NCBI RefSeq assembly: GCF_030265065.1 | Contig: NC_080406.1 | Location: 15,785,094-15,849,093, forward strand | Reading direction: 5' to 3' | Origin: Corythoichthys intestinalis | Lineage: Eukaryota | Length of the DNA stretch: 64,000 nucleotides | Shown: in pieces, positions 4,796 to 38,698 of the stretch | How positions within the stretch are numbered: the first letter of the stretch is position 1 | Layout of the letters: every line of letters starts with the position of its first letter | Position numbers and translations under genes: made by a program | The notes under the pieces: model-generated | Told to the model about the DNA's origin: nothing | Databases searched by the model: none | The model's input: only the letters and a program-made list of their open reading frames with translations

Positions 4796-5777
4796 CCATT
4801 TGACTGGAAATTGCATCCAAAAGCAGCACATCGTGGCATTTTACTTCGCGAGTTTGGGCAGCAATAAGCAATTGTTGAACACCAAAGACACCAATGACGT
4901 CATCACTGCGAGCCCGCAAACCATGGCGCCAACTAACGGTCAAAATATGGACTAAATATTATAAAATATTGCTATTGATTTAACATTTTATGTGTTTATA
5001 ACAACATATTTTGGTACAAGAGAACAATTGTGGTTTATTAGAGCTTACATTTATTTAAGTTAGAGGATCACTTTAAAGGACCTGTGACATCACAAAAGAA
5101 ATCTTAAATATCATTACTTTTGGAATTAATATCATATTTTGAGATGATTCAACTATATACAACAATTTTGTAAAGCGCTGATGACGAGAAATGCATCTTT
5201 AGAATGCGTACGACAGGCTAAAAAAAATCTTAATAGCATGATTATGTGAATTACAATATTTTGAGATGATTCGACTACATACAACAATTTGACAAAGCGC
5301 AGATGACGAGAAATTAGTATTTTAATCCGCCGTCTAGCCAGGCCTACCATTAATAGGGCTCTAGCGTCCCCAATAGGTGGATGACGTCAGCGGGGGAATG
5401 GTTTCATCTGATTTAGTATGCAGCCCATTGAGGGGGGAATTATTCATAACGTGGAAAATGCGACGAAGAGAGCCGCAAAATCTCATTGTTTCAGTCTGTG
5501 TACTCCAATATTTTTAAAGATATTCAATTTTACAGAAGTATTTTCCCAATTGCTAAATAAATGGTAGGGTCATGACAAATAACAATCTTGTGCTAAATGG
5601 GATATGAAATAATAAAAATGCATTTATTCAGTACGACATGGCAAAATTACTCCATAATGGTCAAAACTGTCGACTTCACTTTTACTGTCGCATCTCCCGA
5701 AAGCTACATTATTCCACCGTAGTTAGTAAGGCTTTTGACATTTCCCAGCCCCCTGGCTTCAGAGAATGTAACAAAGG

Positions 5778-11426: not shown

Positions 11427-13612
11427 TAAAGCAGTGTTTTCAACCTTTTTCAAGCCACGGCACACTTTTTTCATGAAAAAATTCCAATGCACACCACAAG
11501 CAAAAAATGTAAAAATGAATTTCTGTAGACAATATAAAGTTGTGTATTGAATAGGAATCATACAAACAAAGAAAAACACATTTTATAATCATTTTTTTAC
11601 TCTGGCAAGACGAAACAAAAACACTCAAGCAGGGAGGCAAGGTCACCCTATCACACGTCAACAAAAGGTTCCTGAGAAAAATGACAACGTTTAGTTAAAC
11701 ATTCAGTCTTTGAAGGCTCTCGCAGGGCGGGCCATGGGCAGGAAGAGGGTGTGTTTGGGATTTTTTTTCTGTTGATTCGGGAGTTACTGTTGTCCGGGCA
11801 ACGAAAGTTGTGGATTTTGCAACGTCAGCGTCAAAGGGGCTCTTGGAGTCTTGTCAGTCGTGTTATCAGTTGGGTATCGGGCGTTCTCCGGTGTTTCTTG
11901 TATTGAGACAGAGCGTCCTGCTATTTGTTCTGGACTGTCCGAGAGAACTGATTGCGAGAGTTTGTGCATCAATCTTGCTCAGTCAGTTGTATGACGCACG
12001 CGCTGGGCTTATATGATAAGAAGGCGTTGTTTATCTCTTATGCCCGGAAAGGGGACACCGGGTGCCTAGTGATGAAGAGAATAGACAACTAGATATTAAC
12101 ATTGGAAAATAGAAATAAAGTAAGACAAGTAGTAGGTAGAGTGAGAAAAAGGAGATAGAACTCAGTGGCTGTACTTCCCCCAGCATTATAACTTCTAGTG
12201 CAGCTTAGACTAAACTGTGAGTCTACTCCGACTTCAGCTAGCCTGACCATAAGCTTTGTCGAATAGGAACATTTTTAATCTAATCTTAAATGTGCAGACT
12301 GTCTCAGCTTCTTTAATATTAGCTGGAAGCTGATTCCATAAAACGGGCTTGGTGGCTAAAGGCTCTAGCTCCGACAGTACTTTTAGAAATCCTGGGAACT
12401 ACCAGTAGACCTGCATTCTGTGAGCGGAGGGTTCTGTTGGGGCGGTATGGAACCAGAGCATCAGTGAGATAAGATGGCCCCAACCCATTAATGGTCTTAA
12501 ATGTAAGAAGGAGGATTTTAAATTTAATTCTAAACTCGACTGGAAGTCAGTGAAGGGCCTGGAGCACAGGGGTGATGTGCTCTCTTCTATTGGTTCCTGT
12601 TAAAAGTCTTGCTGCTGCATTTTGGACTAGCTGAAGACCTTTTAGAGAACTTTTAGGACAAGCTTCAAGTAGGGAGTTACAGTAATCCAATCTCGATGTA
12701 ACGAACGCGTGAATTAATTTTTCTGCATCGCTTTTAGATAAATATTACTAATTTTTGCTATGTTGCGCAGGTGAAAGAAGGCTGTTCTGCAGGTTTGTTT
12801 AATGTGAGCTTTAAAGAGCATACGACACGAGAAAAAAAGTCTTAAATGGCATTATTATGTGAATTAGAATCATATTTTGAGACGATTCGACTATATACAA
12901 CAATTTAGCAAAGCGCAGATAACGAGAAATTAGTCTTTTAATCTGCCAGTTAGCCGCGCCTACCATTATAGGGCTTTAGTAAGTGTACATATCGATAGCC
13001 TGTGAGCTTCTGTCATGACGAAGGTTTGTTTGTGAATGAGAATTGACAGTTAACACCGTAAAGGCAGTGTGTGACTGCGCATGCATGTGCAAATTTGTAT
13101 CCAAAGAAGAATATGGGTATTTTCGACTTAATTGCTTTATATATACATTTATATATGTATTGCTCGTAATCAAAGTCTTAACAACTGGGCAGGCTCTCTG
13201 GGAAAACTTCACAGGCAGCACAGTACCGTTGTATTCTGTGCAAAGCGTCAGTCAATTTCAACACACGCTAATTGGTCCTGTGAAAAATAATGAAAACAGG
13301 ACATTTTCATTAATTCATAAAACCCCGCTGGACGCCTCGGACATGATGTGAAAAGCGGACATGTCTGGGCAAAAGAGGACATTTGATCACCCGAAATTAG
13401 TTGCCTATTGACACCTACTGATTTGGAAAAGTATTGCGTGATTACCAACCATTGCACAGCACATACACCAGATTTTACGCATTTGCGGCTTCATTATCCA
13501 AAAGTATTTTTACATTAATTACGTGAAAGTGGATGATTTTCTATGGCACACCGGACACTATGCTACGGCACAGTAGTGTGCCGTGGCACAGAGATTGAAA
13601 AACACTGGTTTA
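11427..13612. mobile_element. ~2.2-kb element bounded by ~45-bp inverted repeats, with an L2 fragment inside
   Basis: Left TTTAAAGCAGTGTTTTCAACCTTTTTCAAGCCACGGCACAC. The right end is its reverse complement, CACAGTAGTGTGCCGTGGCACAGAGATTGAAAAACACTGGTTTAAA. The flanking duplication is TA or TTAA and cannot be resolved. Confidence 0.45.
12043..12815 (-). mobile_element. L2-clade LINE, 3' fragment (same family as 33100-37520)
   Basis: Over 95% identical to 33105-33880, covering the ORF2 C-terminus plus 3'UTR. It ends abruptly at 12815, where an unrelated repeat starts. Confidence 0.8.
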
Positions 13613-29823: not shown

Positions 29824-32513
29824 AGAAAAATAGGTAACACTTTATAATAATAACTATCCGTTTAACCATTAGTAAACTGTTGATAAATGATTTATTGTTG
29901 ATTTGTGAAGTTACCAAAATAGGTAACACTTTATAATAACTATCCGTTTTACCATTAGTGAACTGTTGATAAATGATTTATTGTTGATTTGCGAAGCATT
30001 TGTTAACAGTTTGTTAAGCATTTACAGGGTGTTCTTAACCTGAAACACAGTTTGTGTAGAAACGTTTCAAGTTTTTGTGTGTAACGTTTGGCATTTCTAT
30101 CTTTTCAGGTTAAGAAATGCCGTTCACTTCAAAAGAAAAGGCATTTTGATAAGGCATTTTGCAGGCAGCGCTCATGTTGCACATTTATGAAAATCTGCCA
30201 TAGAACCAACAAATAATTGTACTTTTCTTTGTATATTTAACCAATAAAACTTATGACCTTCAACATAAAGTGTATATAGTTTTATTAAGATCCATCAACT
30301 TATGGAGTTACAGGAGTGCCAAAATTAAAAATAAATAAATAAATGAATAAATAAATAAATGAATGAATAAATAAATAAATAAATATAAAGAGAAATAAAT
30401 ATATAAATGAATGAATAGGTAAATAAATGAACGAATAAATAAATATAAAGAGAAATAAATATATAATTAAATAAAAATATAACGGTATACTTTGTCATTG
30501 ACATTTACTTTTGATCATTAACAACCACAAACGGAAAAAACAATGACAATTTTATTTTTTGCCTTTGCCTTTTCTGTTTGGCTTTTACATTGTCATTGTC
30601 ATTTGTCAATCGCCTTTCCTCTTTGGGAATGTAAATGGCAAATGCGCAGAGAAACGGTCTGTCAATCAAATGACGTTGGTAGGGGCTTTCCAACCAGGAA
30701 TAGTAGTCGATAACTGATTATTTCTAGTTTAACTTTCCGCACATGCGCCGTACGGCTAACCAAGCGCGACCACGGCTGTTTTGTGTGACTGCACTACGCC
30801 ACTTCCTCCAATCGGTCTTTGTCAGTCACGTGCCCAAACTAGCGGACGCGCCCCCATGCGCCATTTTGAGTGTACCACGGATGTAAACAAACCAGAACAG
30901 AAGTAGCTCCAACGCCACATTACTGCCTCCAACTTCATCGCTGGATATAAAAAACTCCCTCTTTTACAGTATCAGCGCTTAAATTTTAAAAACTATAAAT
31001 CTCTCGAAGCTCACGGACATTTAACAAATGGCTCGGTGCAGGATCTCCGCATTTCGACCGCAGGACTGCGACAACACAGTCGTCACTCTCGTTGCTCCTC
31101 TCAGAAACATGATCCAGCTCTTACTTGAACATTGTTGAACTTGAATTGTACCTTGATTATCATCTTAAACATCGCATGACTAAAACAGGTGAAGGAACTG
31201 TCAAAATTACATGCAAATTCATGTATATTGCACAATATATTGTTTCAGTGTTGACATTGCCATGCAAAGATGTGCAATTCTCTCCATGCAGGACTTATCA
31301 TGTGAAGTGGGACAAATTTACTTGAACACGTTATTCTACAACTAGTAATATTTATTTTACTTCATATGCACGTTTTATATTTCCTTGTATTGCCATTTTC
31401 TGTTTACCATTGTGCGGCTGCTGTTTTGAATGAGAATTTTAGTAAAAATTATATATCTAAAAAAGTAAAACTGTCAAACTTCTCGTTTTGTTTGCAAACA
31501 TCATACTTCCTATTCAGTGTTTATCTCCCAAAAAATGTTTGAATGTAATTGGTAAAAAAAAATTTTTTTTAAAAAGTACTTTCCATGATCAAAACTAACA
31601 CTAGTTCTTTATGTATGTTCGTCATGATTATAAACACGAAGATTCAGACATAGAAAATAATTATTCTTTGAATGGTCTGGCATGTGTGTCGAATAATATA
31701 TTTTATAATATATTTTTTTACCGGTCTAGAAAAATGTATTTCTATCGTTTAATCTATCACGTAAAAAGTCTATCCATATCCATATCTATCCAGTCTATCC
31801 TATCCATAAAAACCGCACGTGCAACTCGATAACCGACATCACTTTCCTTCAGGTAAACTAGGAATAATCCGTTGTCGACTACTATTCCTGGTTGGAAAGC
31901 CCCGCCTAACGTCATTTGATTGACAGACCGTTTCTCTGCGCATTTGCCATTTACATTCCCGAAGAGGAAAGGCGATCGACAAATGACAATGACAATGTAA
32001 AAGCCAAACAGAAAAGGCAAAGGCAAAAAATACAATTGTCATTGTTTTTTCCATTTGTGGTGTTCAATGACAGAAAGTAAAAGTCAATGAAAAATGTTGT
32101 CATTGTTTTTTCCGTTTGTGGTTGTTAATGACCAAAAGTTAATGTCAATGACAAAGTATAACGTTATATTTTTATTTATTTATTTATTTATATATTTATT
32201 TCCCTTTATATTTATTTATTCGTTCATTTATTTACCTATTCATTTATTTATTTATATATTTATTTCTCTTTATATTTATTTATTTATTCATTCATTTATC
32301 GATTTATTCATTTATTTATTTGTGACTCCATACAACTAGCATGGGCATTTAGAATGGGGTCAATCATATTGGAATACCCTGTAAATGCTTAACAAACTGT
32401 TAACAAATACTTCACAAATCAACAATAAATCATTTATCAACAGTTTACTAATGATCTATTAACTAGTAAAGCGGATAGTTATTATAAAGTGTTACCGAAA
32501 AATAACAATTATA
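29824..32513. mobile_element. Foldback-like element with ~700-900-bp inverted arms
   Basis: 29824-30720 is the reverse complement of 31850-32513. The match includes a tandemly duplicated ~85-bp subterminal unit and an (AAATAAATG)n-like tract. About 1.1 kb of central sequence is unique. Confidence 0.55.
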
Positions 32514-33293
32514 TTGCTGTATTTTTCAATATTGCCTTATGTCTTGGGATAGTAAGAAAACATGGTTCCTACTATGAAACATGGATGAGGCTCGGCTTCT
32601 GAGGCTGCTTTACTGCACCTGGCACAGTGTTCAAGACATTCTGGAGAGAAATTCAATTCAATTTTATTTGTATAGCCCTCAATCACAACAGAGGTCTCAA
32701 AGGACTTTACAGAGGCAATATGATACACAATTAGAAATGAAGCAACAAAGATGAATAGATACAGTTCAAGTCCTGGGTATCCCCTATCCTTAAGACCCTC
32801 CATGCCGGCAAGGAAAAACTCCAAAAACTCCAGAGTCAATTGGGAGAAAAATGAGAAACCTTGGGGAGTACCACAGTCAGGAGAGATCCACTCCCAGGAC
32901 GGATAGACAGGAACCCCAGAACGGCTAATGGAAATTAGCAAGCGAAATTATAGTCCGTAAAAATACAGTGGAGTAAAGGAGCAAGAAGAGGTCCCTCTAG
33001 TCAGATGAGACGGGGGTAGCAGCGAGGACGTCTATCCAGCCAGGGGTCCGGACAGTCAGGAGGCTGCAGCTGAAAAATAGCCCCTCCCCAGAGGGGAGGG
33101 GGGAAAGGGGACATCGGGTGACTAGTGATGAAGAGACTAGACAACTAGATATTAACATTGGAAAATAGAAATAAAGTAAGACAAGTGGTAGGTAGAGTAA
33201 GAAAAGGAGATAGAACTCAGCGGCTGTACTGCCCCCCAGCATTATAGCTTCTAGTGCAACTTAAACTGTGAGTCTATTCCGACTTCAACTAGC

Positions 33294-36200
33294 CTAACTA
33301 TAAGCTTTGTCGAATAGGAACGTTTTTAATCTAATCTTAAATGTGCAAACTGTCTCGGCTTCTTTAATACTAGCTGGAAGCTGATTCCATAAAACAGGGG
33401 CTTGGTGGCTAAAGGCTCTAGCTCCGACAGTACTTTTATGAACCCTGGGAACTACCAGTAGACCTGCATTCTGAGATCGGAGTGTTCTGTTGGGGCGGTA
33501 TGGAACCAGAGCATCGGTGAGATAAGATGGCCCCAACCCATTAATGGTCTTAAATGTAAGAAGGAGTATTTTAAATTTAATTCTAAACTCGACTGGAAGC
33601 CAGTGAAGTGCCTGGAGCACAGGGGTGATGTGCTCTCTTCTATTGGTTCCTGTTAAAAGTCTTGCTGCTGCGTTTTGGACTAGCTGAAGACCTTTTAGAG
33701 AGCTTTTAGGACAAGCTGCAAGTAGGGAGTTACAGTAATCCAATCTCGATGTAACGAACGCGTGAATTAATTTTTCTGCATCGCTTTTAGATAAAATGTT
33801 TCTAATTTTGGCGATGTTGCGCAGGTGAAAGAAAGCCGTTCTACAGGTTTGTTTAATGTGTGCTTTAAACGATAAGTCAGGGTCAAATAAAATTCCTAGG
33901 TTTTTAACTGTGGCGCTGGAGGCTACACTTACATTGTCCAGAGTGACTATCTGGGCAGATAAAGAGTCTCTAACACTTTTCGAGCCTATTATAAGGACTT
34001 CTGTCTTTTCAGGGTTAAGTAGAAGATAGTTAGTGCTCATCCAGGTATTTATATCTCGGACGCAGGCGCTTAGTTTTTCTACTTGCCTGACCTGCTCAGG
34101 TTTAATTGATAAATACAGTTGTGTGTCGTCAGCGTAACAATGAAAGTTAATGCTATGTTTTCTGATGATGTTACCTAGAGGAAGCATATACAGCGTAAAC
34201 AAGATGGGCCCGAGGACAGATCCTTGCGGCACACCATAACTAACTCTAGAGTACGATGATGATTGCTGGTTTACATTGACAAACTGGTACCTATTAGATA
34301 AATATGATTTAAACCAGCAGAGGGCTGCTCCTCTAATGCCTATGTCACATTCTAATCTCTGCAATAAGATATTATGGTCGATTGTGTCAAAGGCTGCGCT
34401 CAGGTCCAGCAGAACCAGGATCGAGACTAATCCAACGTCAGCGGCAAGTAACAAGTCATTAGTTACTTTAACTAATGCGGTTTCAGTGCTATGATGAGCT
34501 CGAAAGCCAGACTGGAACTGTTCAAATAAACTATTGTCCTGTAGGTGCTGACAGAGCTGTTTAATTACCACTCTTTCAAGGACTTTGGAGAGAAATGGTA
34601 AGTTAGAAATAGGTCTATAATTGGCCAGAATATCAGGATCAAGAGTAGGTTTTTTCAAGAGCGGTTTAATAACTGCATATTTAAAGGACTGCGGCACGTA
34701 GCCAGTAACTAATGAGGTATTTATTATATTTAAGATAGTGTCAAGGAGGCACGTTGATGGTTTGGAGGACATTATAATTGAAGTTACATCAATTTGGTCT
34801 ACAGTGGTAAAGTTATTTAATATTTTAGAGGGGTTTATAGGAGATTCCGAATTCTTTGTCTGCACTTTATCAGACCTAATAATTGGAAGTGATTCATTTA
34901 TTTTATTTCTAATAGTTGCGATTTTATTGTTAAAAAATTTTAGGAAGTCATCACAGCTAAGGGTGGTTGGGATATAAGGTTCTATTGAGGTGTGACTGTT
35001 TGTCAGCCTTGCTACAGTGCTGAACAGAAACCTAGGATTATTTTTGTTTTCCTCTATTAAGGATGAGTAATATCTGGTTTTAGCCGTGCGCAAGGCCTGC
35101 TTATATGTCACTAAGCTGTGTTTCCAAGCAGAGAGGGTGTGCTCTGTGTTGGAACGGCGCCAAAGTCTTTCTAATTTACGTGTCGATTGTTTAAGAGAGC
35201 GTGTTTCAGCATTATACCAGGGAGATGCTCGTCTCGGCTTGACAAACTTTAATTTGGAGGGAGCGACGACATCTAGGGTGGTACGAAACGTAAACAGAAC
35301 ACGATCAACAAACTCGTCATTAACAGCAAGGCCGGACATCACTCCTTCATAATTAGATGACATGGAGGCAAATATAGGCTGAATTATCTGTTTATACTCT
35401 GAAACAGAGTGATCACCTAATGTCCTTTTCATCTGAGTTCTAATCACTGGTGGTGGATTATCTTGAAGCACAAACCGAAAGGTAATTAGAAAATGATCAG
35501 ACAGTACAGGGTTGTGGGGATGGACACTAAGATCACTAATCTCAGTACCGTAGGTTAAAATCAAGTCCAGGGTGTGCTTGTGACTATGAGTTGGTTTATT
35601 TACATTTTGAATGAAGCCAGTCCCATCTAGTAGGTCATTAAAGGCCTTACCAAGGGAGTCACCTTCATCGTCAACATGTATATTAAAATCCCCTACAATT
35701 ATAATTCTATCCCAGCTTAGCAAAATACTAGATAAAAAGTCAGAGAAATCTAACAAAAACTGTGAGTAGGGACCAGGGGGACGGTAAACCACTATGAACA
35801 GAACTGGTTTTTGGTTCTTCCAGTTAGCGTCTATAATTGATAGTGCTAGACTTTCAAAGGAGTTATAAATGTAATTAGCTTTACTTTTTGGGCTCATACC
35901 TAAACAAGAGTGTGATATTACTGCCACCCCCCCTCCACGGCCCGTGCTTCTAGCTGTGTGAAAATTCACGTGACTTGGGGGTGTGGATTCATTAAGTCTA
36001 ACAAAGTCATCCTGCTGAAGCCAAGTTTCAGTCAGGGCCAAAATATGAATATTGTAATCCCCAATTAAGTCATTAACTAACAGAGATTTGGGCGAGATTG
36101 ACCTGATGTTTAATAATCCGCATCTTATATATTTATTAAGAGCTAATTTATTTTCACTGCTATTAGGGGCTATATGTATTAAATTCTTTGGTCTCGTTCC

Positions 36201-36362
36201 TATAGTACTCGGTTTTCCCCTGTTCACTATACGAGGCACGGACACGGTCTCTATCTTCTGTCCTGAATTTTGGATTTGTGACAGCTCGGAAAGAGGCGAG
36301 TGGTCACTACTAACAGTGTTATGTTTTACACTACAACACTGCGCCCGGGCCCCCACTCTCAA
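33294..36362 (-). CDS. L2 ORF2: apurinic endonuclease plus reverse transcriptase (1022 aa)
   Basis: APE motifs [24 protein letters not shown] motifs [48 protein letters not shown]. The C-terminal block reads [13 protein letters not shown]…LHWLPV. Confidence 0.9.
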
Positions 36363-36365
36363 GTG

Positions 36366-37244
36366 TCACTTTGGGAGACTTAGTTTGGCGGCCAAATTTC
36401 GAGTTAAGAGAGCAGCACCGTCCCAAGTCGGATGAATGCCGTCTCGGCGCATGAGCCCGGGCTTGCCCCAAAACGCGTGCCAGTTATCAACAAAGACTAT
36501 ATCGTTTTCTGGGCACCATCTAGACAACCAGCGGTTAAATGATGAGAATCTAGAGTACATCTCATCATTGACCAAATTAGGCAGAGGACCAGAGAAAACT
36601 ACGGTGTCCGCCATCGACTTAGCAAGTTCACACACCGAGGCTACGTTTAATTTAAGCACCTCAGACTGTCTCCGCCGGGCGTCGTTACCGCCTGCGTGAA
36701 TCACGATACGGCGGAACCTCTTCCTACTCTGCTTTAAGAGTCTGAGGTTTCCTTCGATGTCACCGACTCTGGCCCCTGGGTAGCACCTGACAGACACCGC
36801 CGGGTGCTTCACGTCTCTAACTATGGAGCTTCCAATTACGAGAGTGTCTGGTTCAGCCGGTGTGTCGCTGAGGGGGGCAAACCTATTGCTGACGTGAAGC
36901 TGCTGGTGCACTAAGGTTGTGCGTTTACCACTGCGCTTCCCCCGTACAGTCACAAATCCCTCCTTAATTTCCCCCGGCTGCACGGGGCTCGCTGGGGGGC
37001 TAACTGCGCTAGCAATCCTACTACTGCAAGCACGACCTGCCACTACCTGGCTATAGCTAGGACTAGCTTTCGTCTCTAGAGTGCAGAGCCGTGCTTCTAG
37101 CTCAGAAACCCTGGTCTCCAACCCTGAGACTAAGCTACACTTCCTACAGCTACTACTGTCCTCGACGAAGGAGCCAGGGTGCTCGCTATACATACAGCAC
37201 ACTGAGCAGAAAAGACGGGAGGACGAAGGCAGAGGGCTAGCCAT
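36366..37244 (-). CDS. L2 ORF1: Cys-rich N-terminus plus SGNH-type esterase domain (292 aa)
   Basis: Motifs LVIGSSIVRDV (nucleophile block), IHAGGNDA (GxND block) and RDGIHPTWDG (DxxH block). It ends in a TGA that is in the same frame as ORF2. Confidence 0.85.
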   Translation of the reverse strand: MASPLPSSSRLFCSVCCMYSEHPGSFVEDSSSCRKCSLVSGLETRVSELEARLCTLETKASPSYSQVVAGRACSSRIASAVSPPASPVQPGEIKEGFVTVRGKRSGKRTTLVHQQLHVSNRFAPLSDTPAEPDTLVIGSSIVRDVKHPAVSVRCYPGARVGDIEGNLRLLKQSRKRFRRIVIHAGGNDARRRQSEVLKLNVASVCELAKSMADTVVFSGPLPNLVNDEMYSRFSSFNRWLSRWCPENDIVFVDNWHAFWGKPGLMRRDGIHPTWDGAALLTRNLAAKLSLPK

Positions 37245-37554
37245 AGCTCGGATAAGCTAGGCTAGCAAGATAGAGCTAAAGAGGAGAGGAGAGTAGTTTT
37301 AATCCACGATCTGTCCGATCGTGGGATAAAACAAAATAAGGAGCACTAGGAGAGCCGAACTAGCCTAGGATCGATTCTCCGATGTGTCCGTTGGATAAAA
37401 CAAATTGAGGAGCACTAGGAGATTAGCGACTAGTAGCAGCGCTAACAAACAAACGATACACTCCACAAACAAACGATACACTCCCTAGTGTCAGGAAGCT
37501 TGGTCTCGGATGCAAGTCATGGGTCGACCAACTTAACTTGGAGAAAAGCATTGG

Positions 37555-37800
37555 ACTATTTTGATGCGGCCTTATTTGAGCCCAGATCTAAATCCCATTG
37601 ATCGGCTCTGGAAGGATCTAAAAAAATGGAAGCTTGACAAGACACTCTTTAAACCTGAGACACGTGGAGCAGCTTCCTCAATAGGAGTGGGCCAAAATAC
37701 TTGTTGACAGCTGCAGAGGTCTCATTGACAGTTCTAGAAATTGTTTGATTGCAGTGATTGCCTCAAAAGGTTTTGCAGCAAAATACATAGTAGGAGATGA
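37555..37800 (+). mobile_element. Tc1-like transposase C-terminal fragment abutting the L2 5' end
   Basis: The translation reads …PDLNPIDRLWKDLKK…AVIASKGFAAKY. Confidence 0.55.
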
Positions 37801-38698
37801 GAAGAATGTATACATGTATGTATAGAATGAAACTGATTTCCCTCTGTATTAAGCAATTAAAAATTTACTAGCCACCATCATTTGTTTATCCTCTGTGTTT
37901 TTTTTTGTTTTTTTTTCCAAGCACAGGAGTGTGACTGAGAGACATCAGAGAGAGGTGCTAGTCACGAAGTACGTTGACACTTGAGCTGTTTACGAACCTG
38001 TTCTCTTTACGAGGACCCTCGTCTTTACTCTCAAACCTCCATCACATGCTCCGACACAATCAGCTCTTCAATCTCACACATTTGCTGCTCAAGGCTATGT
38101 GGTGATGAAGTGTGTACGCGTGCGTGTGTGCGTGCAAGCGCGCGTGGATGCGTGTGTCTCTAAGAGGCGACTTTGGGAAAGCTTCTTCAATTGGGACCAA
38201 AAAAAGGCCATTTGAGGGAAAAGCTCATTTTAGTTGAGAAGTGGCATTGTAAGTAACTTGGAGCCTGGAGCAGTGACTCTGGCAGAATACTGAATGCTCC
38301 TAAAGTTGCTTTGAAGATCACGAAAGTGGGCCTCGTGCAGTTTATGGTATATATGCTACAGGAGAGGCGGGACTTTCGACAAAAAATGTCATGTATTATT
38401 TACAGAACTGCACCATAGCTAGAGCGTTGTGCCTCTGACATTTTTTTTTTCAATAAATTCACGAATCAGCGAACATTTAACATTTATGCTGAGCCTTTAT
38501 GCCAGACATCTGTCAGGATGCGTGGACGAGGTGGACCCAATCGCAGGGAAAACAAAAGGCAAAGCAGGGTGTGTGGGACCCCAAAATGCTTTAGAATGTT
38601 TTTTTTAAATGAAAGTTGCCATGCCAGAGCTCTAGAATTTTATTAGCACAGTACGGTTTATGTCCAGACAATTGAAAAATACTGTAATTTACCAACAG

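What the first reader, a model, noticed from the sequence alone, without database searches (positions are those of the whole stretch)
33294..37244. Full-length L2 LINE with ORF1 and ORF2 in one frame separated by a single TGA
Reading the minus strand, ORF1 ends …SLPK-TGA at 36366-36368. The next codons, CAC and TTG (36360-36365), are followed by 1022 open codons encoding APE and RT, with no earlier stop. The first AUG in ORF2 lies further downstream. This arrangement fits ORF2 translation by stop-codon readthrough or by termination-reinitiation, rather than from an independent start. Both ORFs are intact, and the 770-bp copy at 12043-12815 is about 95% identical, so the family looks young.
Basis: seen in the sequence. 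Interest (0 to 1): 0.6.

Follow-up and report, generated by a model that had tools for sequence, protein, structure and literature searches.

The report
Fish L2 retrotransposon with leaky stop
This is a young L2 jumping gene of a pipefish whose two genes share one reading frame split by a single UGA stop; the same layout recurs in related fish elements, which suggests the enzyme gene is made by ribosomes reading through that stop.

Summary
On the minus strand, 37244..33294 is one frame of 1317 codons. Its only internal stop is TGA at 36368-36366. It separates an esterase-type ORF1 from an endonuclease plus reverse-transcriptase ORF2. The first in-frame ATG lies 157 codons downstream, inside the endonuclease domain.

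The TGA is not a private mutation. Seventeen DNA loci from other fishes have ORF1-TGA in frame with an open continuation. These include the zebrafish ZfL2-1 lineage, whose ORF1 esterase domain is far diverged from the window's. The stop is always TGA and the next base always C. The real ORF2 stops are TAG or TAA. Three cypriniform loci read UGA CUA G, the classic vertebrate readthrough context.

In the window's lineage, about 55 nt after the TGA are conserved. Third codon positions there are conserved as strongly as first and second, uniquely along the alignment. A hairpin is predicted, with weak covariation.

Best explanation: programmed UGA readthrough giving an ORF1p-ORF2p fusion (about 0.6). 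AUG-independent reinitiation remains possible (about 0.25).

Caveats: this copy lacks 16 conserved ORF2 codons; the element extends to about 32650; nothing is experimentally tested.

The parts
37245..37540 (-). 5' UTR (partial; true 5' end not determined). It holds a 34-nt repeat (37320-37353 and 37389-37422) and a 20-nt tandem duplication (37445-37484).
   Evidence: Similarity to relatives stops at 37266 (L001) and 37308 (L005). No target-site duplication of 7 nt or more was found.
36366..37244 (-). ORF1, 292 aa plus the TGA. N-terminal Cys-rich and coiled-coil-like part, C-terminal SGNH/GDSL esterase.
   Evidence: 100% identical to C. intestinalis XP_057682991 and others.
36387..36848 (-). 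Esterase domain of ORF1 (residues 133-286).
   Evidence: Pfam PF13472 E=2.4e-12. PDB 4C1B, the ZfL2-1 ORF1p esterase, E=3.8e-31.
36366..36368 (-). In-frame UGA, the proposed recoding site. It is followed by C at 36365.
   Evidence: TGA and +4 C in all 14 loci tabulated, window included, plus L021/L022 and L029.
36312..36365 (-). Conserved block of about 55 nt directly 3' of the UGA (first 18 codons of ORF2). Candidate readthrough-stimulating RNA element.
   Evidence: Alignments. Third-position identity is 0.80, against 0.70 and 0.75 for positions 1 and 2. This is the highest of 399 windows.
36313..36342 (-). Predicted hairpin inside the block. In this copy it is CAGUGUUGU...ACAUAACACUG; the consensus is GCAGAG...CUCUGC.
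   Evidence: RNAalifold and MFE folds. 92% of cells paired and 2 compensatory pairs, one of them in this copy. Covariation is weak.
33294..36365 (-). ORF2: 1023 sense codons from CAC to the terminal TAG (33294-33296), with no AUG start.
   Evidence: 51% identity over 1008 aa to a Clarias ZfL2-1-type ORF2.
36231..36254 (-). IETVSVPR motif (ORF2 residues 38-45). It is conserved in both L2 lineages and lies upstream of the APE domain and of any AUG.
35484..36113 (-). AP-endonuclease domain.
   Evidence: Pfam PF03372 E=4.4e-15 and PF14529.
35895..35897 (-). First in-frame ATG after the UGA, inside the APE domain and downstream of the LNIRS and LTETW motifs.
34739..34740 (-). Site of an in-frame 48-nt (16-codon) deletion relative to all relatives. 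It removes the conserved LDP[IV]PT...LK segment.
33894..34652 (-). Reverse-transcriptase domain (YADD present).
   Evidence: Pfam PF00078 E=2.4e-35. Sequence.
32650..33293 (-). 3' UTR. It ends in a short stem-loop (about 32664-32712) and (TGAAT)2T terminal repeats (32650-32660), with no poly(A).
   Evidence: Blast to L001 and L002 reaches 32652/32650. Sequences. Fold.
12046..12815 (-). Fragment of a second copy of the family, covering the ORF2 C-terminus and the first 190 nt of the 3' UTR.
   Evidence: 93.8% identity over 774 columns. Ends examined.

Best explanation
The locus is a young copy of an L2-clade LINE (esterase-ORF1 type, the ZfL2-1/Maui group) in the pipefish Corythoichthys intestinalis.

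Proposed mechanism (inferred). One mRNA is translated from the ORF1 AUG. Most ribosomes terminate at the UGA and release the esterase protein ORF1p. A minority decode UGA with a near-cognate tRNA and continue in frame. This yields an ORF1p-ORF2p fusion of about 1316 aa that carries endonuclease and reverse transcriptase. The logic matches gag-pol readthrough in murine leukaemia virus and sets a high ORF1p:ORF2p ratio.

Proposed signals. The leaky UGA-C tetranucleotide is one. The conserved sequence just downstream, possibly folded as a stem-loop, is the other. The zebrafish lineage uses the short UGA CUA G context instead.

Shown: the anatomy, its conservation across lineages, the stop-codon and +4 bias, and the nucleotide-level conservation after the stop.
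Inferred: that readthrough occurs, its efficiency, and that the fusion protein is the active enzyme.
For: 1. In-frame ORF1-TGA followed by an open frame in the window and in 17 DNA loci from other species.
   - Eleven related to the window's lineage, ORF1 54-87% identical where tabulated.
   - Four otophysan ZfL2-1-type loci.
   - Two marine-metagenome loci with only about 27% ORF1 identity, reading GAG GAG TGA CAA TT. These two contigs end before any endonuclease domain.
2. Eight 50%-cluster representative proteins span the junction with Trp at the stop position. The next residue is Q, L or H.
3. In the 14 loci tabulated (window included), the stop is TGA and +4 is C in all 14. Genuine ORF2 stops are TAG (6) or TAA (1).
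   - At neutral A/G third positions of invariant K/E/Q codons, only 2 of 9 stay invariant across 10 of these sequences.
4. Three cypriniform loci read TGA CTA G (L025, L026, L029) and L004 reads TGA CTA. Seven of 11 loci in the window's group read TGA CAA.
   - Contexts derived from CUAGGC and from CAAUUA support more than 15% UGA readthrough in human cells (review PMC13517186).
5. No conserved AUG exists. The first in-frame ATG lies 24-470 codons downstream, usually inside or beyond APE.
   - Frame 0 has no stop from the UGA to APE, while frames +1 and +2 have 3-11 stops in 70 codons.
6. Protein conservation between lineages starts at [11 protein letters not shown]2 residue 38, far upstream of any AUG.
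7. In the 18 codons after the UGA, third positions are as conserved as first and second (0.80 vs 0.70 and 0.75).
   - This window ranks 1 of 399. The eight windows with the largest excess of position 3 over positions 1 and 2 all start at +0 to +7.
8. A hairpin is predicted in all 11, with 92% of cells paired. In 7 of 11 an extended stem is predicted starting at about +9 to +13, the spacing of known readthrough stem-loops.
   - Mean z-score is about -1.4.
9. No fused ORF1-ORF2 protein ranked among close relatives in a junction-spanning search.
Against: - There is no experimental evidence here: no reporter, Ribo-seq or peptide data.
- All elements descend from a common ancestor. With no non-coding spacer, the shared frame is partly inherited rather than independently selected.
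- Support for RNA structure is modest. The z-score is -0.9 for this copy and positive for two loci. Only two compensatory pairs were found.
- This copy's context, UGA CAC UUG, is not a characterised high-efficiency motif.
- The conserved 18 codons could in part reflect a conserved peptide.
- Human L1 shows that AUG-independent reinitiation exists in LINEs (review PMC5972666).
[quoted passage not shown] An obligatory fusion is therefore not required in that assay. The constructs could not be checked.
Confidence: 0.6

Rival explanations
1. Termination-reinitiation, or another AUG-independent initiation. Ribosomes terminate at the UGA, stay on the mRNA and restart at a non-AUG codon just downstream, giving separate ORF1p and ORF2p, as proposed for human L1. 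The conserved block after the stop would then be the reinitiation signal.
For: - No AUG lies near the junction.
- There is precedent in LINEs. Human L1 ORF2 is translated independently of its AUG, and SART1 uses UAAUG coupling with a downstream structure (PMC5972666; PMC3708506).
- A conserved downstream RNA block exists.
- ORF1p is reported to be dispensable in ZfL2-1 assays.
Against: - This model does not predict an invariant UGA with C at +4 while ORF2 itself ends in TAG or TAA.
- It does not predict the UGA CUA G context in the cypriniform loci.
- No conserved near-cognate start follows the stop. The TTG of this copy is absent in relatives.
- There is no UAAUG or AUGA overlap.
- The ORF1 tail upstream of the stop is the least conserved part of ORF1, so no obvious TURBS-like element sits there.
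Confidence: 0.25
2. The single TGA is a private nonsense mutation in a once-fused single ORF, or conversely the in-frame arrangement is an accident of this copy.
For: A few database proteins have a sense residue at that position: R in P0279, C in P0327, G in P0335.
Against: - The TGA sits at the same position in 17 DNA loci from other species, and is inferred in 8 further clusters.
- All ORF1 proteins in two searches end within 1-2 residues of the same point.
- The sense-codon cases are one-base changes from TGA, and P0279 also carries insertions relative to intact ORF1s.
- L010, L012 and L014 carry three different private indels.
Confidence: 0.02
3. UGA is decoded as selenocysteine.
For: An in-frame UGA with a long 3' UTR.
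Against: A permissive Rfam scan of 32300-37800 on both strands found no SECIS family at E<=5. The 3' UTRs of relatives are poorly conserved apart from the terminal tail.
Confidence: 0.01
4. This particular copy makes no functional ORF2p whatever the mechanism. It is a recently inserted but defective copy, mobilised in trans if at all.
For: A 16-codon in-frame deletion removes the LDP[IV]PT...LK segment, which is present in all 9 other loci that cover this region, including the Clarias element.
Against: - ORF1 is identical to the commonest genomic variant.
- Both frames are open over 1317 codons.
- Whether the deletion is family-wide in C. intestinalis could not be checked, because no ORF2 protein of that species is in the database.
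- This reading is compatible with the main explanation, which concerns the family.
Confidence: 0.5

Closest known systems
ZfL2-1 (zebrafish L2 LINE, retrotransposition-competent; Sugano 2006, Kajikawa 2012) and fugu Maui
   Same: - Esterase-type ORF1, with 4C1B at E=3.8e-31.
- APE plus RT ORF2, 51% identical to a Clarias ZfL2-1-type ORF2.
- IETVSVPR motif.
- 3' stem-loop and short terminal repeats without poly(A).
- ORF1-UGA-C-ORF2 in one frame.
   Different: - The sequence after the stop is unrelated. It is CUA G plus an A/U-rich stretch in cypriniform loci, against a G/C-rich conserved 55-nt block in the window's group.
- The accessible ZfL2-1 papers describe 'two ORFs' without a translation mechanism.
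- The original descriptions are not held and could not be checked.
Gammaretroviral gag-pol stop-codon readthrough (MoMLV) and alphavirus or coltivirus UGA-C readthrough with extended 3' stem-loops
   Same: - A structural or accessory protein and the polymerase are in one frame, separated by one leaky stop.
- A conserved RNA element starts about 8-12 nt downstream.
- The element also encodes the N-terminus of the downstream protein (PMC13517186).
   Different: - MoMLV uses UAG and an H-type pseudoknot. Here the stop is UGA-C and at most a stem-loop is predicted, with no pseudoknot found.
- The host element is a non-LTR retrotransposon without a protease, so the fusion would stay uncleaved.
Vertebrate cellular readthrough genes with UGA CUA G (e.g. 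OPRL1; contexts reviewed in PMC13517186)
   Same: The same UGA CUA G context occurs in three cypriniform L2 loci, and UGA CUA in L004.
   Different: The window copy has UGA CAC UUG and most of its relatives have UGA CAA CCC. The extension here is a 1023-aa enzyme, not a short C-terminal tail.
Human L1 and silkworm SART1 ORF2 translation (unconventional termination-reinitiation; UAAUG coupling)
   Same: A bicistronic LINE mRNA. ORF2 expression depends on ribosomes that translated ORF1. L1 is AUG-independent, and SART1 has a downstream structure.
   Different: L1 has a 63-nt spacer and SART1 has an overlapping AUG. Here there is no spacer, no AUG, a strictly in-frame layout and an invariant UGA-C.

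Membership tests
L2-clade LINE, esterase-ORF1 type (ZfL2-1/Maui group; 'Clade A' of PMC13343379) | ORF2 with an AP-endonuclease domain followed by a reverse-transcriptase domain | tested here: met
   Pfam PF03372 and PF14529 at residues 85-294; PF00078 at residues 572-824.
L2-clade LINE, esterase-ORF1 type (ZfL2-1/Maui group; 'Clade A' of PMC13343379) | ORF1 with an SGNH/GDSL esterase domain homologous to ZfL2-1 ORF1p | tested here: met
   PF13472 E=2.4e-12; PDB 4C1B E=3.8e-31.
L2-clade LINE, esterase-ORF1 type (ZfL2-1/Maui group; 'Clade A' of PMC13343379) | RT groups with L2 rather than CR1 or other clades | tested here: inconclusive
   51% identity over 1008 aa to the ORF2 of a Clarias element whose ORF1 is 67% identical to ZfL2-1. 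PMC13343379 assigns teleost esterase-ORF1 elements to L2. No RT phylogeny with reference clades was run.
L2-clade LINE, esterase-ORF1 type (ZfL2-1/Maui group; 'Clade A' of PMC13343379) | 3' end with a stem-loop and short tandem repeats instead of poly(A) | tested here: met
   ...GGGCTATACAAATAAAATTGAATTGAATT at 32650, shared with L001 and L002. Hairpin AGUCCUU/GAGGGCU.
L2-clade LINE, esterase-ORF1 type (ZfL2-1/Maui group; 'Clade A' of PMC13343379) | Full-length insertion flanked by a short target-site duplication | tested here: inconclusive
   No shared k-mer of 7 nt or more between the 3' flank and 37245-38100. The 5' end is not defined.
Programmed stop-codon readthrough site | Leaky stop (UGA) with C at +4, conserved across relatives | tested here: met
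   TGA and C in all 14 loci tabulated, window included, plus L021, L022 and L029. Eight proteins have Trp at the site.
Programmed stop-codon readthrough site | Characterised stimulatory 3' hexanucleotide (CUAG-type or CAA UUA-type) | tested here: inconclusive
   Met in the cypriniform loci (UGA CUA G). Most relatives of the window have CAA CCC, and L021/L022 have CAA UUC/UUU. The window copy itself has CAC UUG.
Programmed stop-codon readthrough site | Downstream ORF in frame, open and under coding constraint from the stop onward, without its own start codon | tested here: met
Programmed stop-codon readthrough site | Raised synonymous-site conservation immediately 3' of the stop | tested here: met
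   Third-position identity 0.80, rank 1 of 399 windows.
Programmed stop-codon readthrough site | Stable RNA structure starting about 8-12 nt after the stop, supported by covariation | tested here: inconclusive
   Hairpin 92% paired with 2 compensatory pairs. z-scores range from +0.8 to -2.8 and are -0.9 for the window.
Programmed stop-codon readthrough site | Measured readthrough product | not testable with these tools
   Needs reporter, Ribo-seq or proteomic data.
Termination-reinitiation (SART1 UAAUG, calicivirus TURBS type) | Restart AUG overlapping or adjacent to the stop | tested here: not met
   No ATG in any frame within 243 nt in the window. No conserved ATG in relatives.
Termination-reinitiation (SART1 UAAUG, calicivirus TURBS type) | Conserved upstream motif that tethers the 40S subunit | tested here: inconclusive
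   The last 18 codons of ORF1 are its least conserved part. Complementarity to 18S rRNA was not tested.
Selenocysteine recoding | SECIS element in the 3' UTR | tested here: not met
   No SECIS match at E<=5 in 32300-37800.

The most novel reading that the evidence does not exclude
Esterase-ORF1 L2 LINEs as a group, from zebrafish ZfL2-1 to percomorph elements and possibly more distant relatives, express their reverse transcriptase only as an ORF1p-ORF2p fusion made by programmed UGA readthrough. Different lineages would use different stimulators: the short UGA CUA G context in cypriniforms and a previously undescribed 55-nt RNA element in percomorph-type elements. This would be the first non-LTR retrotransposon clade shown to use retrovirus-style gag-pol readthrough.
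Probability: 0.45. Interest if true: 0.75.

Novelty: new variant of a known kind. Interest (0 to 1): 0.62.

Why it matters
How bicistronic LINEs translate ORF2 is a long-standing open question. Only human L1 (unconventional reinitiation) and silkworm SART1 (UAAUG coupling) have been dissected.

A conserved in-frame UGA-C junction in the L2 clade points to a third solution, the one retroviruses use for gag-pol. It would fix the ORF1p:ORF2p ratio and tether the enzyme to ORF1p, which may explain cis-preference.

The idea is directly testable. ZfL2-1 already has a working retrotransposition assay, and its relatives carry the textbook UGA CUA G motif.

There is also a practical point for annotation. 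Gene callers either miss ORF2, as in C. intestinalis where none was found, or translate the TGA as Trp.

Tried and rejected
- Exact-protein look-ups for C. intestinalis copies (P0001, P0121, the window ORF1) and for a zebrafish isoform (P0193) found no contig. Other copies from the same genome therefore could not be aligned at DNA level.
- A pattern scan of viral contigs found nothing.
- The scan of prokaryotic genomes gave one chance hit in a 74% G+C Nocardioides contig, with no LINE there.
- The private-mutation and fused-ORF reading is rejected on comparative data.
- Selenocysteine is rejected, as no SECIS was found.
- A 2A/StopGo peptide after the junction is rejected. No NPGP motif occurs in the ORF2 N-terminus (sequence).
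- Splicing out of the stop is rejected. The weak GT at AAG|TGA is not conserved in relatives, which read CCC TGA.
- The TTG 'start' is rejected as an artefact of bacterial ORF rules.
- A target-site duplication search found nothing of 7 nt or more.
- Literature searches found no accessible paper describing readthrough in L2 or CR1. Kapitonov 2003, Sugano 2006 and Kajikawa 2012 are not held. Poulter 1999 was not looked up. Prior mention there cannot be excluded.
- The extended outer stem could not be aligned consistently across lineages, so no covariance model was built.


Full report
**1. Observation**

Reading the minus strand, ORF1 runs 37244..36366. It is 292 aa, starts at ATG and ends ...SLPK followed by TGA at 36368-36366. 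CAC and TTG follow in the same frame. The frame then stays open to TAG at 33296-33294.

The stretch 37244..33294 is one frame of 1317 codons with a single internal stop. The first in-frame ATG after the TGA is at 35897, 157 codons on. No ATG occurs in any frame for 243 nt.

Pfam places a GDSL/SGNH esterase in ORF1. In ORF2 it places an AP endonuclease (residues 85-294) and a reverse transcriptase (residues 572-824). The first ATG therefore lies inside the endonuclease domain, downstream of the LNIRS and LTETW motifs. The description is correct.

**2. Source and age**

ORF1 is 100% identical to an 'uncharacterized protein' of the pipefish Corythoichthys intestinalis that is recorded on 9 contigs. 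It belongs to a 90%-identity cluster of 17 ORF1 sequences. Every member listed or aligned ends ...SLPK, and the six aligned are 99-100% identical to the window's ORF1. The family is young.

The second copy in the window is 12046-12815, 93.8% identical to 33102-33869. It stops short of the true 3' end, so it is an internal fragment rather than a standard 5'-truncated insertion.

**3. Limits of the element**

Relatives from Sphaeramia (L001) and Oryzias (L002) align again at 32906-32652 and 32939-32650. All three end in ...GGGCTATA(C/T)AAATAAA(A/G)TTGAATTGAA....

The 3' UTR is therefore about 640 nt and the element ends near 32650. The end has a short hairpin and (TGAAT) repeats and no poly(A). 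This is the L2/Maui type of tail.

The 5' end lies upstream of 37266-37308 and could not be fixed. No target-site duplication of 7 nt or more was found.

**4. Is the in-frame TGA private?**

No. A junction-spanning protein query returned about 290-aa ORF1 proteins from dozens of percomorph fishes. All cover only the ORF1 half and all end within one or two residues of each other.

DNA was recovered for 28 loci.

- **Window's lineage and relatives.** Eleven loci from other species have the junction undamaged: L001-L009 and L013 with the TGA, plus the decayed L010-type copies discussed below. The clean set is Sphaeramia, Oryzias melastigma, Epinephelus, a Rhinatrema assembly contig and six metagenome contigs. 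Where tabulated, their ORF1 is 54-87% identical to the window's. In each, ORF1 ends in TGA, the next base is C, and the same frame continues into the endonuclease domain.
- **Fully open ORF2.** After the TGA, ORF2 is fully open (1023-1055 codons) in the window, L003, L006, L007, L008 and L009.
- **Deviating junctions.** L010, L012 and L014 are decayed copies. Each has a different private indel: a 1-nt deletion upstream of the stop, a 13-nt deletion, and loss of the A of TGA.
- **Zebrafish ZfL2-1 lineage.** Its ORF1 esterase domain matches the window's at E=3.8e-31. The layout recurs there:
  - Danio rerio: GTT TGA CTA GTA
  - a cyprinid: ACA TGA CTA GTA
  - Danio aesculapii: ATC TGA CTA GTA
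  - Clarias gariepinus: ATC TGA CTT GCG, with ORF2 open to its end
- **Very distant loci.** Two marine-metagenome contigs with about 27% ORF1 identity read GAG GAG TGA CAA TT. One of them stays open for at least 139 codons. These contigs end before any endonuclease domain, so an ORF2 there is not confirmed.
- **Protein evidence.** A search of 1.84 billion cluster representatives found eight proteins that span the junction with Trp at the stop position, followed by Q, L or H. The simplest reading is that gene callers used a table in which TGA encodes Trp. That gives eight more in-frame TGAs.
- **Sense residues.** A few proteins have R, C or G at the site, each a one-base change from TGA.

**5. 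Evidence bearing on mechanism**

- **(a) Stop identity.** In all 14 loci tabulated, window included, the ORF1 stop is TGA and +4 is C. The genuine ORF2 stops are TAG (6) or TAA (1). For comparison, in 10 of these sequences only 2 of 9 A/G third positions of invariant K/E/Q codons stayed invariant.
- **(b) Context.** UGA-C is the leakiest vertebrate tetranucleotide (my own knowledge). Contexts derived from CUAGGC and from CAAUUA support more than 15% UGA readthrough in human cells (review PMC13517186). Three cypriniform loci carry UGA CUA G. Seven of 11 loci in the window's group carry UGA CAA. The window copy has UGA CAC UUG.
- **(c) No start codon.** The first in-frame ATG is 24 to 470 codons downstream, depending on the element. 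The TTG is unique to this copy. Yet protein conservation between the window and the Clarias element (51% over 1008 aa) begins at [11 protein letters not shown]2 residue 38. The region just after the stop is therefore translated.
- **(d) Frame.** Frame 0 has no stop between the TGA and the endonuclease domain. Frames +1 and +2 have 3-11 stops in 70 codons.
- **(e) RNA-level conservation.** The roughly 55 nt after the stop are highly conserved: TGA CAA CCC AGA GTT GRG ACC AGG ARG CAG AGT TGT AGT CTW ACA CAC YTC TCT G.
  - In a codon alignment of 10 open elements, the 18 codons starting at the stop have third-position identity 0.80, against 0.70 and 0.75 for positions 1 and 2.
  - Elsewhere in ORF2 third positions score 0.40-0.52.
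  - This window ranks first of 399. The eight windows with the largest excess of position 3 over positions 1 and 2 all start at +0 to +7. That pattern indicates constraint on the RNA, not only on the peptide.
- **(f) Structure.** A hairpin, GCAGAG...CUCUGC at +27 to +56, is predicted in the alignment.
  - 92% of cells pair. Two pairs show compensatory changes, one of them the window's CAGUG/CACUG.
  - In 7 of 11 sequences the minimum-energy fold extends it to a long stem starting at +9 to +13. This is the spacing of known readthrough stem-loops.
  - Shuffle z-scores range from +0.8 to -2.8, with a mean of about -1.4 and -0.9 for the window copy.
  - I regard the structure as suggestive only.
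- **(g) Alternatives excluded.** No SECIS or any other Rfam family was found. No 2A motif is present. No splice signal is conserved.

**6. Interpretation**

The comparative pattern is what programmed UGA readthrough predicts. Most ribosomes would release ORF1p. A minority would continue to give an ORF1p-ORF2p fusion, as in gammaretroviral gag-pol.

Termination followed by AUG-independent reinitiation, as proposed for human L1, is not excluded. It would explain the missing AUG and a downstream RNA element. It would not explain the invariant UGA-C, the CUA G context, or the absence of any conserved near-cognate start.

ORF1p is reported as expendable for ZfL2-1 retrotransposition in cultured cells. 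An obligatory fusion is therefore not proven necessary, although the constructs could not be examined.

My estimates are readthrough about 0.6, reinitiation or other non-AUG initiation about 0.25, and the remainder other or unknown.

**7. A caveat on this copy**

The window's ORF2 lacks 16 codons (PIPTKLFKQTLPLTID in Sphaeramia). This segment, with its conserved LDP[IV]PT motif just N-terminal of the RT domain, is present in all nine other loci that cover the region. The deletion lies at 34740|34739 between two GAC repeats.

The frame is open but the enzyme may be defective. Whether the deletion is family-wide could not be tested. No C. intestinalis ORF2 protein is in the database, which fits annotators not calling an ORF without an ATG.

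**8. Comparison with the known, and novelty**

The element is a member of the esterase-ORF1 L2 group (ZfL2-1, Maui). The recent CR1-group survey assigns such teleost elements to L2 clade A (PMC13343379).

None of the accessible papers on ZfL2-1, on LINE translation or on recoding mentions an in-frame stop or readthrough in L2. The original descriptions of ZfL2-1 and the 2012 ORF1 paper are not held, and the Maui paper was not looked up, so a passing mention there cannot be excluded.

I rate the finding a new variant of a known kind: a known element type and a known recoding mechanism in a combination that appears undescribed. It offers a direct experimental route through the ZfL2-1 assay.

Noticed in passing
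window 34739-34740 (minus strand): An in-frame 48-nt deletion in ORF2 removes 16 codons, including the conserved LDP[IV]PT motif. These codons are present in all nine other loci that cover the region. The copy is open but may encode a defective RT.
   Followed up: partly
window 37320-37484: The 5' UTR holds a 34-nt repeat (37320-37353 and 37389-37422, 91% identical) and a perfect 20-nt tandem duplication (37445-37484). This recalls the repeated 5' UTR units described for some L2 elements.
   Followed up: no
L001 (Sphaeramia orbicularis) vs window 33067-37266: A pipefish L2 and a cardinalfish L2 are 81% identical in DNA over 4.3 kb, with ORF1 87% identical in protein. That seems high for hosts in different orders, so either slow evolution or horizontal transfer is possible.
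   Followed up: no
L004 (Rhinatrema bivittatum assembly contig CAAJIB020000840.1): An L2 with an esterase ORF1 and the same TGA-C junction sits on a caecilian assembly contig. Its ORF1 is 56% identical to the window's. This may be a rare amphibian ORF1(+) L2, a horizontal transfer, or contamination.
   Followed up: no
proteins P0434, P0469, P0470, P0472, P0490, P0511: Fish L2 reverse-transcriptase fragments, 65-79% identical to the window's ORF2, are deposited as proteins of Vibrio parahaemolyticus, Acinetobacter baumannii and E. coli on 1-2.6 kb contigs. Fish DNA has probably contaminated these bacterial assemblies.
   Followed up: no
proteins P0263, P0267, P0275, P0298, P0307, P0314, P0320, P0344: These predicted proteins read straight through the L2 junction with Trp at the stop position. 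This suggests metagenome gene callers switched to a TGA=Trp table on these eukaryotic contigs.
   Followed up: partly
codon alignment of 10 loci, ORF1 codons -108 to -60 relative to the stop (window about 36550-36690): Third-position identity in the ORF1 esterase region (0.61-0.74) is clearly higher than anywhere in ORF2 (0.40-0.52). The cause is unexplained. ORF1 may carry further RNA-level constraint or have a different history from ORF2.
   Followed up: no
L008 about 1650-1720; L027 about 5440-5650: There are in-frame internal duplications in the ORF2 N-terminal linker. In L008, 21 codons repeat part of the conserved post-stop block. In the Clarias element the IETVS(I/V)PR...GLLNIRSL segment is duplicated. 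The linker tolerates length change only in multiples of three.
   Followed up: no
L021, L022 (marine metagenome Ga0163179): Very distant esterase-ORF1 elements, about 27% identical with a Q-rich coiled-coil N-terminus, also have GAG GAG TGA CAA TT followed by an open frame. The contigs end before any endonuclease domain, so the host and the ORF2 are unknown.
   Followed up: partly
window 32171-32321 and 29830-30740: A (TTTA)n-rich microsatellite with a 64-nt higher-order period lies just beyond the element's 3' flank. Sequences at 31851-32496 recur in inverted orientation at 29833-30734 (79-90% identical), which points to another repeat family next to the LINE.
   Followed up: no
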